Part shown: positions 14,067-48,949 of the stretch, piece after piece
Numbering within the stretch: the first letter of the stretch is position 1
Layout of the letters: the number at the start of each line of letters is the position of its first letter
Origin: Eledone cirrhosa
Taxonomy: Eukaryota
Assembly (NCBI GenBank): GCA_964016885.1
Contig: OZ024742.1
Span: 273,916,001 to 273,980,000, forward strand
DNA length: 64,000 nt
Direction of reading: 5' to 3'
Program-made: the position numbers and the translations under genes
Notes under the pieces: model-generated
Databases searched by the model: none
Told to the model about the DNA's origin: nothing
Seen by the model: only the letters and a program-made list of their open reading frames with translations

Positions 14067-14276
14067 TCAGGGACCAGTTTTCTTTAACCGTCCTTGGAAA
14101 CTCTTTGAGATAGTCCCCAGTGCGCCTATGACAATCGGGATCACTTTGACCTCATGGCAGTTCCAAATCCTTTTTACCTCCAACTTTAAGTCCTGGTATC
14201 GGTTAATTTTCTCCCTCTCCTTCTCTTGCACTCTTATGTCGAATGGGCAGGCTACATCCACAATCAGGCACGATCT
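14067..14276 (-). mobile_element. RLE-domain fragment of a second R4-clade-like LINE family
   Basis: DVACPFD.RVQEKEREKINRYQDLKLEVKRIWNC..VKVIPIVIGALG. Same family as 27248-27737. Confidence 0.85.
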
Positions 14277-14280
14277 TTAT

Positions 14281-17200
14281 ATTATTATTATTATTATTAT
14301 CGTTATCCTTAATTTCTTTCATTACTGTTTCTGAGATATATGCTGAGTCTTCCTGACTCCTAGGGAAAATAAATTCACAGTGTGCATTGGTAAGCCAGTT
14401 AATACAGCACATTGATTATAATTTAAAAAAAGAAGAAAAAACAGTATTCATATATACACATGTGCATATGCATATGTAAATTCAAGGTGGGATATCAATC
14501 TTACAGAGATAGTGCTCTTGTCAATACGTGTGCAGTACCAGTCTAAAAACATTTTTTGCACCTCGTGCAGAGAGTGTATACCAGGAACCATTCGCAAATA
14601 TTGTTCTGTTCCTTTCTTGATTATTCCCAGTCCTCCCACAATCACTCGTATTGTAACGGCCTTGAGGTGCCACATTTTCACAATTTCAATAAGCAGATCT
14701 TTATATTTTCGTAGCTTGACAAATTATTTTGCCGCGATATTGTGATCACATGGGATGCTCCTATCTATCGACAAACAGACCTTGTTATGTTGATATTTTA
14801 TAATGATGTCAGGTCTATTTGCTTTTATGGTCCTGTCAGTATGTACAGGAAAGTCCCAGAGAATTGTTACGTTTTCTCCTTCAGTTACAGCCTCAGGTTG
14901 ATGATTGTACAACTTGTCTTCAGCTTTGATTTCGTAATGCCGACATATTACCCAGTGTAGATATTGGCCAACTCTGTCATGTCTATATTTGTATTCTACT
15001 GGTGCTAAAACCTTACATCCAGAGAGTAAGTGATCCACTGTTTCAACCCTAACATTGTAGGATCGGCATTTTGGTTTTATTCAGTTTCTCATCACATTTG
15101 CCTGTTAATTACGGGTCAATAAGCTTTGATCTTGGGCAGCTAAGATGAAGCCGTCACACTCCGCCTTTACCCATGAACTACGTAGCCATTGACGGGTGTG
15201 CTTTTGGTCAACATCAACTTGTTTGCTACGGGCCACATATTTGCCATGCAGAGGTTTCTGCTCTCAATTTGATGTTAATTGTCCTTGCCCTTTTGATTTT
15301 GCCAGTGATTTTATGTGCCTAGAAGCATCAGCTGCAACAGTTTCTTTAGACTGTCCAGCCTGGGTATCAAGTATGAGATCAGTAGCATATGTTTTGCTCT
15401 CCTTCAAGATAGAATGAAGCTTCTTACTTCTCTCATGCTTTTCAACAAGTTTCAGCATACAGTCGTTAGTTGTTTCAAGGTATTTGGCCAGCCCAATGAT
15501 GGTGGTCTTGTAAGCAAGTTCAAATTGGATCAGGCCACGGCCTCTTTGAGTTCTAGGAAGGTAAAGACGATCCACATCTGCTTTTGGGTGGTACATCCTA
15601 TTACAGGTCAGTAGGTGACGGTCTTTGGTGTCGATTCTTTTGATTTCACTCATATTCCAGTTATACACACCGAAGCTCTCAGTGAGAACTGGGACTGCCA
15701 AGGAATTTATGGCTAGCACCTTGTTACGATCGTTTAGTTCTGATCTCAGAACTGCACGTACTCTCCTGTAACATTCTTTCCTTATCCCCTCTTTCATACT
15801 TGCATCCTGTATGCCAGAGCCCTCATTAATCTCTAAGTATTTATAGGTTTGTTCCTGCTCAAGTTCCTTTAGGATTGTTTCAGCATACAATTCAACTGAT
15901 TCTGAGTTGACAAGTTTCCCCTTCTTGAAAGTGGCTCTTGCACACTTGTCAATTCCAAACTCCATCCTGATGTCATCGCTAAACGTTTTTACTGTCCGCA
16001 AAATGCCTTTCTGTTCGTCATTATCTTTGCAATATAGCTTCAAATCATCCATATAAAATAGGTGGCTTATTTTTATGTTGTCAATTCTATAACCGTACCC
16101 TGTTCTATTAAGCTCGGATGTAAGGGGTATTAAAGCTATGCAGGAAAGCAAGGGGGAAAGTGAATCACCCTGGAATATACCACAGTTGATGTTTATATTC
16201 CCAGAGCACAGTACCCCAGTGGAATGAGACAATTCGAGATTTGTGTTCCATAATGACATATTGTGTTTCAGGTGAGATTTTGAAGATGTCTAGTGATTTC
16301 AGAATCCATGAGTGTGGTATGCTGTGAAAGGCTTTTTTATAATAGATCCATGCAGAACTGAGACTTCTGTCTTTACAGTTCTCAAGGATCATACGATTAA
16401 TCAAAAGTTGTTCTTTGCAACCATATGAACCTCGTCAGCACCCTTTTTGTTCAATGGGGAAAATTTATTCTCCAAAAAACACGTATACTTTTTCCATGAG
16501 AATAGAGGTTAATAGTTTATAAGTGGTGTACAAGCAGGTTATGAGCCGATAGTTTTTTTTATCTTTGGTTTCGTTGTTCTTCGGTAGAAGGTAGGTAGTG
16601 CCACTTGCTATCCAATCATGTGTATTGTTTGGATCTTTCATAATTCGATTAAACAGCTTGACCAATATATTGTGAGTGCACGGTAGTGAGGAAGGCCAGA
16701 AATGTGGCCCGCTGTCTCTACCAGGAGATTTCCATTTATGTGATTTATTGAGTGCTGTCCTTAAGTCCACTATAGAGATGTCTTTCCACCCCTGTTCTTC
16801 GAAAATTGTGTAGAATTTTTCCAGGCAAGTAATCCAATCTACATTAGCATTATATGTCTTCTCATCACTCCAAATCTTACTCCAGAAGTTTTCAACTTCT
16901 TCTATGGCGGGGGGGTATTCAATAATTATTTTTGTCTTCCCTACTTATCTATAAAATGACTTAGCATTGGATGAAAACAACTTATTTTGCATGTAGAAGT
17001 TGTTTCGCTTCTCGAATCTACGAATTCGTTGGGCTTTTACTAGGACCTTTTGTTTCAGAGATTCTTTTGTTGAAACTATTGCTTCTCTCGAGGACAGTCC
17101 ATATTTTCTCTTTAGCTTTCTTACCTTCCTGGATCTTATATCATTTCCAGGGGTTAACTCACTCAATAAAGATATTTCTCCTCTCATTACGTCAACCTCC

Positions 17201-18258
17201 CTTTCGATTCTACTCCTCCAAATTGGTTTACCTCGAAGGTTCGACTTTTTTTTTGGGGGGGGGGGGGGGGGGGGGGGGGTAAACAACTTGTTTCAATTAC
17301 TCTAGCAGATGCATAACTGCTTTCATTTAACTCACTAAGACCAGGTTCTAGTTCTTCTATGATTTCTTTTGTCACAGAATTACCAATCATTATTTGTTTT
17401 CTATTTTGGATTGTATTTGGGAGTTTTTTAAATGGTTCTCTATACTAGAATGTCTTACTACTGCAAGCTCATTCAGTATTTTTGGCTTTAATTCCTTCAT
17501 AGTCTCCCTGTGTTCTTCAGCAGATGTTTGGTTTTCAATTACTGTTTTTAAGTCCCTCTCCTGCCTATTTTCAGCGGGTTCAATAGGGCTTCTCATTTCT
17601 ACAAACCTATTTGTGATTTGGTCAGATGGAGGTCTTTCAGTAAAGACTTGTGACTGGTTTCTATCTCCAGGAGATTCTTCAGTTCTTTCATCATTTATAT
17701 TTATGTCATTCTCCACAGCCTGCTTGATCGCAGTTAGTTCAGTGTCTGTGAGTCGATTATTTCTGAAGATATACCTCCTTACATTTGCCAACTTATTTCC
17801 ATCCATATCACGTCTGCTAGCTGGATTCCGAGTTTTCCAGATTTTGTAAGAGTTTAAAGTGTGTCTGTCTTGTGATGGCTTACTTAATGCATAGTAATAT
17901 GCAAATATTACTTCTTTATACTCTTCTCGGGTCCATTTCATCCTTTTAGGTTTTTCTTTTTGAGGTGGTTTGGGTGGTGGATCTGGAGGGTTCGAGTTGG
18001 GGCAATCCCCGATCAAGTGACCATCCAGGTCCATAATTGGAGAAGAGTGTGTGACAGAGGAGAAATTTTTTATCTCAGCTTGGCACCTTCCTGAGGGACG
18101 CGCTTCCTGATTATCCATAGGAAAAGCGATTTGGCATTGTGTATTAATGTTTATTTGTTCATCTCGCAGTACATGCTTGCGTTACGCATGGTATTGGATG
18201 TACATGGAAAGTTGCCCGGCTCTTTGGGTAGTGCATTTGCTGGCTGGCACTGAGATCA
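14281..18258 (-). mobile_element. Near full-length R4/Dong-clade non-LTR retrotransposon (single ORF: N-terminal domain, RT, CCHC, RLE), frameshifted
   Basis: ORF pieces 18118 to ~14500: KRMKWTREEYKEV, KWKSPGRD, GIFQGDSLSPLL, HLFYMDDLKLY, HLLSGC...RHDRV, NRPDIII. (TAA)n tail at 14281-14300 and TAA/TAG repeat at the 5' junction. Confidence 0.92.
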
Positions 18259-48130: not shown

Positions 48131-48131
48131 A

Positions 48132-48225
48132 TTACGGGGACGATAAAATAAAGTACCACTAATGTACTGCGATAATTGCTGTCCTTGTGCAAATAGTCGA
48201 AACAATTATTATAATTATCATTATT
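48132..48225 (+). mobile_element. SINE family A, 3' half
   Basis: TTACGGGGACGATAAAATAAAGTACC...CCTTGTGCAAATAGTCGAAACAATTATT. Confidence 0.85.
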
Positions 48226-48949
48226 ATGGAGGTGCCGTCAGCCGGGAATGTCCGAGATGCGCGCAGGGCGACGAAACCGTCCTGCACGCACTCGTCCAGT
48301 GTCCGAGCATTGCTGACTTGTGGGTTTATGTCGAACACCTGCTGTCACGTGTAGGATGGATCCACCTATCAGCTGAGTCCATCGTGAGGATTGACCGGCC
48401 CTCTTCCTTTAGCCGGGAAGGGCAGGCAGTTTTTATCTGTCTAGTGGCCATGGCGAAAGAGATAGTATGGTGGACACGTTTGAAAGGGCTGAAGACGAGC
48501 ACTTACCTCTTCGGTGATGCCCTGATTAACTTTTTCAAATTTCATTTGAAAAGGAAAATCAGGGTAGAGAGGGAAGTGCTCTCTTCCCAGCATTTTGTTG
48601 AAAGATGGGTGAGAGAAGCAAGTATGGCCCGAGAGAATGGGCCTACTCTGAGTATGTGCCTGTAAATTAAAGGTGGAAAACTGGGAGAGAGCACTTGCCT
48701 TGGTGGTCAGGGTCACTGTGGCCTTTTAATGGGCTTTCTCCACAAATGTCCCTCCGAAGTCTCCCCCCTATTAGGGAATTTTTCATTGTTATTTTTTTTG
48801 TTACATCATCTGTTTTTGTTTTTTACACGCAGAAATGCCCATTTGTACCGTCCTGTATTGTGCTGCACTGTCCTTAATGTCTACTTTATGTAAACCCTTG
48901 TGGTTAATAAAGAAATCATTATTATTATTATTATTATTATTATTATTAT
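48226..48949 (+). mobile_element. Tx1 3' fragment (~720 bp), same subfamily as the 33503-39304 copy
   Basis: GGAVSRECPRCAQGDETVLHALVQCP...ENGPTLSMCL*. The 3' UTR matches 33520-33770, followed by (ATT)n. Confidence 0.93.

What the first reader, a model, noticed from the sequence alone, without database searches (positions are those of the whole stretch)
14067..48949. Two unrelated LINE groups occupy opposite strands of the same (ATT/AAT)n microsatellite
Seen: every Tx1 copy with an intact end (23950, 27738, 33503, 39305, 45753, 48949) terminates in sense (ATT)n. Every RLE-type copy with an intact end (14281, 19841, 27737, 45754) terminates in sense (AAT)n. This gives tail-to-tail junctions sharing one repeat at ~19830 (SINE/Dong), ~27740 (RLE/Tx1) and ~45760 (Tx1/Dong), and a head-to-tail RLE/RLE junction at ~14290. 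Known: Dong elements target TAA repeats; Tx1-clade families target other microsatellites (Kibi TC, Koshi TTC) and multicopy RNA genes. Inference: an (ATT)n-specific Tx1 lineage and TAA-specific Dong elements each regenerate the other's target, forming self-growing retroelement landing pads. I do not recall this pairing being described.
Basis: partly seen in the sequence, partly recalled or inferred. Interest (0 to 1): 0.75.

Follow-up and report, generated by a model that had tools for sequence, protein, structure and literature searches.

The report
Two LINE kinds share ATT repeats
In this probably octopus genome, two unrelated kinds of jumping gene sit in the same ATT/AAT repeats facing opposite ways and pile up into a 35-kb stack, likely because each landing copies a piece of the repeat and so leaves a fresh landing site, and a very common short element likely borrows the enzymes of one of them.

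Summary
Confirmed, and not only here. About 90% of 14067-48949 is a stack of Tx1-like LINEs (APE), Dong-type LINEs (RLE) and a SINE, joined through (ATT/AAT)n. In loci from across the genome the repeat lies at the 5' junction, so it is a target: Tx1-like 53 of 76 ATT, 1 AAT (full-length 21 of 21); Dong-type 61 of 96 AAT, 1 ATT; background 0.4% each. Of 230 neighbour pairs, 224 follow the strand rule. One empty/filled paralogue set shows a Tx1 insertion duplicating 21 nt of the repeat. This serves either family alike; preferential pairing was not detected (p=0.09), so mutual regeneration is overstated. The SINE shares Tx1's 3' end, a covarying CUUGU hairpin and an ATTAT target start, so it is likely Tx1-driven. 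Dong's TAA target is known, and TRAS/SART are the opposite-strand precedent. An ATT-targeting Tx1 was not found in six open-access searches; Repbase was not searchable. Tx1-clade placement is likely but unresolved. This scan has reported the same system five times on other DNA of this genome and once in another genome.

The parts
14070..14278 (-). Dong-B (RLE-type) fragment, 5'-truncated, own 3' end lost; head abuts the (TAT)7 tract
14280..14300 (.). (TAT)7 tract: Dong-A tail / Dong-B head junction
14301..19630 (-). Dong-A, about full length (5.3 kb), decayed ORF with RT and RLE motifs; sense (AAT)n at both ends
19631..19649 (.). (ATT)n tract: Dong-A head / SINE head
19650..19821 (+). SINE with Tx1-like 3' end
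19822..19840 (.). (ATT)6 tract: SINE / Dong-C tail-to-tail
19841..22979 (-). Dong-C (third RLE-type family), 5'-truncated
22980..22991 (.). (TTA)n tract: Dong-C head / SINE head
22997..23182 (+). SINE, near full length
23183..23193 (.). (ATT)3 tract: SINE tail / Tx1-B head
23194..23934 (+). Tx1-B, 5'-truncated
23935..23949 (.). (ATT)5 tract, then a degenerate repeat
27071..27141 (.). (TAA)16 and (ATA)3 tracts after an (ACT)18 tract
27144..27197 (-). SINE 3' fragment
27231..27245 (.). (ATA)5 tract at the Dong-B head
27246..27737 (+). Dong-B, 5'-truncated, RLE C-terminus and 3' UTR
27738..27748 (.). (AAT)3 tract: Dong-B / Tx1-C tail-to-tail
27749..33502 (-). Tx1-C, about full length, decayed two-ORF APE LINE
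33503..33517 (.). (ATA)5 tract: Tx1-A tail / Tx1-C head
33525..39304 (-). Tx1-A, full length, 5' module type 1, decayed
39305..39355 (.). (AAT)17 tract: Tx1-B tail / Tx1-A head
39356..45218 (-). Tx1-B, full length, 5' module type 2, decayed
45219..45247 (.). (AAT)7 tract at the Tx1-B head plus an 8-nt remnant resembling a minus-strand Tx1 3' end
45248..45745 (+). Tx1-D 3' fragment (orientation exception at its 5' side)
45746..45776 (.). (ATT)n tract: Tx1-D / Dong-A tail-to-tail
45777..48130 (-). Second Dong-A copy, 5'-truncated, 89.5% identical to the first
48132..48204 (+). SINE 3' fragment fused to the Dong-A head without a repeat
48205..48225 (.). imperfect (ATT)n tract: SINE tail / Tx1-A head
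48226..48917 (+). Tx1-A, 5'-truncated
48918..48947 (.). (ATT)10 tract, right end of the stack

Best explanation
A Tx1-like LINE lineage (APE endonuclease) lies with (ATT)n at both ends and three Dong-type LINE families (restriction-like endonuclease) lie with (AAT)n at both ends, in opposite orientation on the same microsatellite, likely because their endonucleases nick opposite strands of it and each insertion duplicates about 10-20 nt of the target, leaving a new tract for either family. Shown: the strand-specific 5' and 3' flanks, the orientation rule, one empty/filled site with a 21-nt duplication, SINE duplications of mostly 9-20 nt that begin ATTAT, and random mixing of neighbours. Inferred: the Tx1-like enzyme nicks the AAT strand and the Dong enzyme the ATT strand, followed by target-primed reverse transcription (established for non-LTR elements); repeated use of the junction tracts builds polarised stacks such as this one; the SINE is moved in trans by the Tx1-like proteins through the shared 3' CUUGU hairpin. 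The two LINE kinds converged on one target and do not depend on each other.
For: 5' junctions of de-duplicated copies with an intact 3' end and at least 85% identity: Tx1-like ATT 53 of 76, AAT 1 (full-length 21 of 21; truncated 32 of 55). Dong-A AAT 19 of 33, Dong-B 35 of 53, Dong-C 7 of 10, ATT 1 of 96 in all. SINE ATT 58 of 242, AAT 1. Background 0.42% (ATT) and 0.43% (AAT) at 169,800 positions. An RTE-like LINE control had neither repeat in 6 of 6 copies. Pairs sharing a tract: 224 of 230 follow the rule. Paralogues on contig C3 (L331-L342): copies A and C are empty, with ATC(ATT)11 and ATC(ATT)14; copy B holds a full-length 99.4% Tx1-A with ATC(ATT)14 kept at its 3' side and ATC(ATT)6 at its 5' side. 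SINE: 55 of 95 young copies have a non-pure duplication of at least 9 nt, against 14 of 475 shuffled; in the 47 that start at the element end, positions 1-5 read A45 T46 T46 A43 T42. The SINE's last 28 nt match Tx1-A/B/C ends at 15-18 of 28 (shuffle p 0.0016 or less) and Dong ends at 5-9 of 28. The stem around CTTGT pairs at positions 1-3 in 101-107 of 108 Tx1 and 209-212 of 216 SINE ends, with C-G to G-C and A-T to G-C swaps. Intact copy L202: ORF1 697 aa, ORF2 1139 aa with APE, RT and zf-RVT. Dong-type ORFs have RT, CCHC and RLE motifs, and their only PDB hits are R2 proteins.
Against: 23 of 76 Tx1 and 35 of 96 Dong 5' junctions lack the expected run under a strict 8-nt rule (deletions and rearrangements were counted as misses). 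Most copies came from best-similarity searches, not a random draw; the random sample gave only 2 Tx1 (1 ATT) and 2 Dong-B (0 AAT) 5' junctions. A search for duplications around Tx1 and Dong copies did not beat the shuffled control (16 of 69 against 147 of 690; 12 of 84 against 116 of 840), so their length rests on one Tx1 event and on the SINE; none is shown for Dong. The SINE mostly uses short ATTAT sites in unique DNA (only 8 of 66 random copies have a long 5' run), unlike Tx1 itself. The Tx1-D end matches the SINE only at 11 of 28 in register. The RTE control is small. No enzyme activity was measured.
Confidence: 0.85

Rival explanations
1. The Tx1-like endonuclease recognises only a short ATTAT site. 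Long (ATT)n tracts collect LINE copies because they hold many such sites, pair well with the RNA 3' end and tolerate 6-kb insertions, not because a long repeat is needed. This refines the best explanation and does not exclude it.
For: SINE duplications begin ATTAT and run on into unique DNA; only 58 of 242 SINE 5' junctions have a run of 8 nt or more; truncated Tx1 copies (32 of 55) are less tied to runs than full-length ones (21 of 21).
Against: All 21 full-length Tx1 copies sit in runs, which are rare (43 tracts of 12 nt or more in 600 kb) compared with 5-nt ATTAT sites. The SINE may have been moved by older or looser subfamilies.
Confidence: 0.35
2. Cross-family mutualism: each family supplies, through its tail, the target of the other, so the two are coupled and pair preferentially.
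For: Dong/Tx1 pairs are common: 63 of 125 LINE-LINE pairs; the seed-only table leans towards mixed pairs.
Against: 32/63/30 is what random mixing gives; Fisher p=0.089; same-family tandems are frequent (31 Dong-Dong and 29 Tx1-Tx1 head-to-tail); in the one resolved event the new tract is a plain duplication of the target.
Confidence: 0.1
3. The 5' repeats come with the RNA (read-through from an upstream tract, or template jumps), not from the target.
For: Full-length copies carry the 5' tract more often than truncated ones; many lie in tandem.
Against: Copies truncated at many different positions have the tract directly at the break; the empty paralogues already hold the tract, including its odd ATC unit.
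Confidence: 0.06
4. The repeats are only tails, and the stack is passive accumulation in a tolerant region.
For: The region is dense in elements; older Tx1-like fragments lie left of the window.
Against: It predicts random 5' flanks and random orientation; both fail, and the RTE-like control lacks these flanks.
Confidence: 0.02

Closest known systems
Dong (R4 clade; Bombyx Dong, DongAg, DongBg, Darwinula Dong1/2)
   Same: RT plus C-terminal restriction-like endonuclease; inserts into (TAA)n, stated for most insects, molluscs and cnidarians (PMC7998251, passages; PMC3812793, passages). Dong-R4 is annotated as abundant and recently active in Octopus vulgaris (PMC13282606, passages).
   Different: Nothing fundamental. 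Three families coexist here and share tracts with an APE lineage. No named reference was available for a tree.
Microsatellite-targeting Tx1: Kibi (TC)n, Koshi (TTC)n, crocodilian (TTCC)n/(TTTC)n families
   Same: Tx1-type APE LINE that prefers a microsatellite (PMC4494074, passages and section 15).
   Different: The target here is (ATT)n. The lineage forms its own clade (100/99) and is not joined with support to the one TC-flanked relative in my trees, so the preference may have arisen separately.
TRAS and SART of Bombyx mori
   Same: Two LINE families insert in opposite directions into the two strands of one repeat; the endonuclease decides the strand (PMC7265360, passages).
   Different: Their target is the telomeric (TTAGG)n, and both carry similar APE domains (R1 clade; clade name recalled). 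Here an APE and an RLE lineage share a dispersed trinucleotide.
Keno (Tx1, APE) and Utopia (RLE) in U2 snRNA genes
   Same: A Tx1 and an RLE lineage converged on one target (PMC4640811, passages).
   Different: They share the same site and 3' flank in a low-copy gene; here the strands are opposite and the target multiplies with each insertion.
SINEU / Tx1-Mar of crocodilians
   Same: A SINE assigned to a Tx1 partner through shared target preference (PMC4494074, abstract and passages).
   Different: Here the link also rests on a shared 3' end with a covarying hairpin, and the SINE family covers about 2.8% of sampled DNA.

Membership tests
Dong / R4 clade | RT followed by CCHC finger and PD..D..K restriction-like endonuclease, no APE | tested here: met
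   RVT_1 is the only Pfam hit; CCHC, RHD, PD..D and K..Y motifs read in Dong-B and Dong-A, whose first Cys is changed in that copy; PDB hits only R2 proteins. Motif meaning is recalled.
Dong / R4 clade | Inserts into (TAA)n in sense orientation | tested here: met
   61 of 96 5' junctions AAT, 1 ATT
Dong / R4 clade | RT groups with named Dong/R4 elements | not testable with these tools
   The 120 listed homologues carry no Dong or R4 name
Dong / R4 clade | Diverged N-terminal Myb/SANT-like domain (PMC7998251) | not tested
   N-terminal ORF pieces were read but no profile comparison was run
Tx1 clade | Two ORFs; ORF1 with CCHC knuckle; ORF2 APE-RT-C-terminal zinc region | tested here: met
   L202: ORF1 697 aa with CX2CX4HX4C, ORF2 1139 aa with Exo_endo_phos, RVT_1, zf-RVT. 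The ORF2 layout is shared with the wider L1 group.
Tx1 clade | RT groups with known Tx1 elements rather than L1 | tested here: inconclusive
   Own clade in an unresolved radiation with U1-, U2-, U5- and TC-flanked relatives and a TX1-named coral protein; no vertebrate L1 or named Kibi/Keno row. Top relatives score 250-430 bits against 106 for human L1 ORF2p (different databases).
Tx1 clade | Target preference (over 20% of flanks, the criterion of PMC4494074) | tested here: met
   53 of 76 5' flanks
Kibi / Koshi lineage | (TC)n, (TTC)n, (TTCC)n or (TTTC)n target | tested here: not met
   Flanks are (ATT)n
TRAS/SART pair | Opposite orientation on two strands of one repeat | tested here: met
   61 of 63 Dong/Tx1 pairs are opposite
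TRAS/SART pair | Two related APE families in telomeric (TTAGG)n | tested here: not met
   APE plus RLE, dispersed ATT tracts
SINE partnered with this Tx1-like lineage | Shared 3' end and shared insertion signature | tested here: met
   15-18 of 28 terminal nt, covarying hairpin; duplications start ATTAT; 40 of 41 SINE/Tx1 pairs on the same strand
SINE partnered with this Tx1-like lineage | RNA-gene-derived Pol III head | tested here: inconclusive
   Neither Rfam nor ARAGORN calls a tRNA in the SINE copies; diverged heads often escape these tools

The most novel reading that the evidence does not exclude
An undescribed (ATT)n-specific Tx1 lineage, which gained microsatellite targeting separately from Kibi/Koshi, is the engine of one of the most abundant octopod SINEs (shared CUUGU hairpin, ATTAT target). 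With Dong it forms a case of APE and RLE enzymes splitting the two strands of one dispersed microsatellite, which builds polarised retroelement stacks across the genome.
Probability: 0.55. Interest if true: 0.62.

Novelty: new variant of a known kind. Interest (0 to 1): 0.5.

Why it matters
It adds (ATT)n to the known targets of APE LINEs and offers a natural pair of unrelated endonucleases that read opposite strands of one simple duplex, with an intact copy (L202) available for assay. It names a likely partner LINE and recognition hairpin for a SINE family covering about 2.8% of sampled DNA. It explains how tens-of-kilobase polarised repeat stacks grow, and why many ATT/AAT microsatellites here mark element ends (20 of 43 tracts of 12 nt or more in the random sample), which matters for marker use and repeat annotation in octopods. 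The principles themselves (Dong on TAA, opposite-strand sharing, APE/RLE convergence) each have precedents.

Tried and rejected
The protein query was partly out of frame and so selected copies with a similar frameshift; their shared ~810-aa ORF is a selection artefact, and an intact ORF2 turned up in the random sample (L202). The duplication search around Tx1 and Dong copies was no better than shuffled, because flanks are pure repeat. Two trees (FastTree, 114 rows; IQ-TREE LG+G4, 40 chosen rows, bootstrap not fully settled) left the base unresolved. None of 80 metagenome relatives was seen flanked by (ATT)n at contig ends; one had (TC)n at both ends, and several lay by snRNA genes (20 of the 80 were scanned with Rfam). 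Names from cluster look-ups were few and automatic. A genome search for the RTE-like control returned nothing because its words are too common, so six incidental copies were used. Sequencing runs: no RNA holder listed; contigs of runs X5, X6 and X10 cover the Tx1 copy but show no flanks, and X22 gave no reads. Supplements of PMC4494074, which may list more Tx1 targets, could not be read. The look-up for look-alike windows in other genomes was empty. Rejected: tails-only accumulation, RNA-borne 5' repeats as the main source, and mutual dependence of the two families.
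Full report
Setting. The window is G000:C3:273916001-273980000 of a 3.0-Gb genome. The nearest named protein hits of the Tx1-like ORF2 are from Argonauta hians (57%) and a short stretch of an Octopus sinensis model, so the host is probably an octopod (inference).

Observation. 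Between 14067 and 48949, 31,339 of 34,883 bp are Tx1-like LINEs, Dong-type LINEs or one SINE family. These families cover about 6% of 60 evenly spaced 10-kb samples (Tx1-like 16,376, Dong 3,337, SINE 17,043 of 600,000 bp, Dong under-counted). The stack holds six Tx1-like copies of four subfamilies, five Dong-type copies of three families that do not align at DNA level, and four SINE pieces. In the window 6 of 6 Tx1-like 3' ends have sense (ATT)n and 4 of 4 intact Dong-type ends have sense (AAT)n. Two junctions break the pattern: 45240-45248 and ~48130.

What the elements are. A random sample held an intact Tx1-like copy, L202: ORF1 697 aa with a CX2CX4HX4C knuckle, and ORF2 1139 aa with APE, RT and zf-RVT. 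Two different 5'/ORF1 modules occur on the same Tx1-A ORF2. Its RT forms a 100/99 clade with five unnamed proteins, inside an unresolved radiation that includes relatives lying by U1, U2 or U5 genes, one flanked by (TC)n, and a TX1-named coral protein. That context fits the Tx1 clade, but no named Tx1 or vertebrate L1 row was available, so membership is likely, not shown. The Dong-type ORFs have RT, a CCHC finger and RLE motifs, no APE hit, and only R2 proteins as PDB matches.

Target or tail. I took the best 30 loci of five DNA searches, 40 ten-kb loci around protein hits and 60 evenly spaced samples. In these and the window I scored every de-duplicated copy with an intact 3' end, at least 85% identity and a visible 5' junction. 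A perfect run of 8 nt or more had to end within 8 nt of the junction; rearranged junctions counted as misses. Tx1-like: ATT 53 of 76, AAT 1; full-length 21 of 21, truncated 32 of 55. Dong-type: AAT 61 of 96, ATT 1. SINE: ATT 58 of 242, AAT 1. Background: 0.42% and 0.43%. An RTE-like LINE with a (GAT)n tail had neither run in 6 of 6 copies. Caveats: most copies were chosen by similarity; the first query included 20 nt of tail, which affects only 3' counts; two paralogous copies (L004, L005) were both kept; the random sample added only four LINE 5' junctions, of which one had the run.

Orientation. Of 230 adjacent pairs that share a tract, 224 follow one rule: Dong opposite to Tx1 and SINE, like with like on the same strand. 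The 3' neighbour of a Dong seed was an opposite-strand Tx1 in 18 of 56 loci, against 0.15% for random positions.

How the target is renewed. Three 99% identical paralogous regions on contig C3 give an empty/filled set. In copies A and C an older Tx1-B end is followed by ATC(ATT)11 or ATC(ATT)14 and then a SINE head. In copy B a full-length Tx1-A (99.4% to L202) sits there, with ATC(ATT)14 at its 3' side and ATC(ATT)6 at its 5' side. The simplest reading is a 21-nt target duplication with no added tail, which turns one tract into two. The SINE agrees: 55 of 95 young copies have a non-pure duplication of at least 9 nt (53 of them 9-20 nt), against 14 of 475 shuffled, and these begin ATTAT. For Tx1 and Dong in bulk the search did not beat its control, and no duplication is shown for Dong.

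No detectable pairing. LINE-LINE pairs number 32 Dong-Dong, 63 mixed and 30 Tx1-Tx1, as random mixing predicts. Seeds alone give 21/40 against 28/26, p=0.089. Because (ATT)n and (AAT)n are one duplex, any duplication serves both families; no mutual dependence is needed.

The SINE. Its last 28 nt match Tx1-A, -B and -C ends at 15, 17 and 18 positions in register (shuffle p 0.0016 or less), Tx1-D at 11, and Dong ends at 5-9. A CTTGT loop lies near the 3' end in 108 of 113 Tx1 and 216 of 241 SINE ends. Its stem pairs at positions 1-3 in nearly all of them, with C-G in Tx1 against G-C in the SINE at pair 2, and A-T against G-C between Tx1 subfamilies at pair 3. These are a few independent changes, not hundreds. 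With the shared ATT signature and strand (40 of 41 pairs), this makes the Tx1-like lineage the likely partner. The SINE mostly lands on short ATTAT sites, which leaves open whether the enzyme needs a long repeat.

Mechanism. Shown: flanks, orientation, one duplication event, the SINE signature and random mixing. Inferred from the established target-primed mechanism: the Tx1-like APE nicks the AAT strand, the Dong RLE nicks the ATT strand, a staggered second cut duplicates about 10-20 nt, slippage lengthens the tracts, and the junction tracts are hit again.

Literature. Dong on (TAA)n in insects, molluscs and cnidarians: PMC7998251 and PMC3812793 (passages). Tx1 on (TC)n, (TTC)n, (TTCC)n and (TTTC)n, and a Tx1-driven SINE: PMC4494074 (passages, section 15; supplements not readable). 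Keno/Utopia convergence on U2: PMC4640811 (passages). TRAS/SART in opposite directions on (TTAGG)n: PMC7265360 (passages). Dong-R4 and L1-Tx1 abundant in octopus, with no insertion target named in the passages found: PMC13282606 and PMC8967140 (passages). PMC4758252 and PMC8869645 (passages) added nothing on this. No ATT-targeting Tx1 and no Dong/Tx1 pairing appeared or 102 (most listed papers seen as listings only). The library lacks Repbase and Kojima and Fujiwara 2004, so absence from print is not established. This scan has noted the same system five times elsewhere in this genome and once in another genome; those notes are unreviewed and are not counted as support.

Verdict. Real, genome-wide in the loci examined, and well explained: a new target variant of a known kind of element, converging with a known one. 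Interest 0.5.

Noticed in passing
   Followed up: partly
window 49217-51700: LTR-retrotransposon pol (RT, RNase H, integrase by Pfam) just right of the stack; not examined further.
   Followed up: no
window 9317-10409: 259-bp tandem unit with an inverted copy, each holding a tRNA-Ser(CGA)-like sequence.
   Followed up: no
window 13074-13900 and 1837-2509: Older Tx1-like fragments (66-75% identity) without intact ends.
   Followed up: no
window 33525-39304 against 39356-45218; L091-L110: Two unrelated 5'UTR/ORF1 modules on the same Tx1-A ORF2 (8 and 12 of 20 loci); the second is shared with Tx1-B, which suggests module swapping between subfamilies.
   Followed up: partly
L331-L342 (G000:C3, 74.35-74.66 Mb): At a second junction tract, copies B and C hold a full-length Dong-B while copy A holds a 503-bp Tx1-A instead: either clean loss between flanking tracts plus a new insertion, or two separate insertions. 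Order unresolved.
   Followed up: partly
L232:4448-6510 and five incidental copies: RTE-like LINE with a (GAT)n tail; 4 of 6 copies have TA-repeat DNA at the 5' junction and after the tail, so it may prefer (TA)n.
   Followed up: partly
P0142 cluster (Patella caerulea): Eleven near-identical Tx1-like ORF2 gene models with nearly alternate locus numbers (003393-003415), suggesting a tandem array of a target-specific relative.
   Followed up: no
L251, L262, L264, L272: Metagenome Tx1-like elements next to U1 or U5 snRNA genes or U1-like starts; possible snRNA-targeting lineages.
   Followed up: partly
run X6 on L202:2824-8850: Contigs of another coded organism cover the whole Tx1 copy at very high depth, mostly 90-99% alike; the family probably occurs in a related species.
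   Followed up: partly
window 59677-60878: Long (TA)n-rich tract of about 1.2 kb.
   Followed up: no
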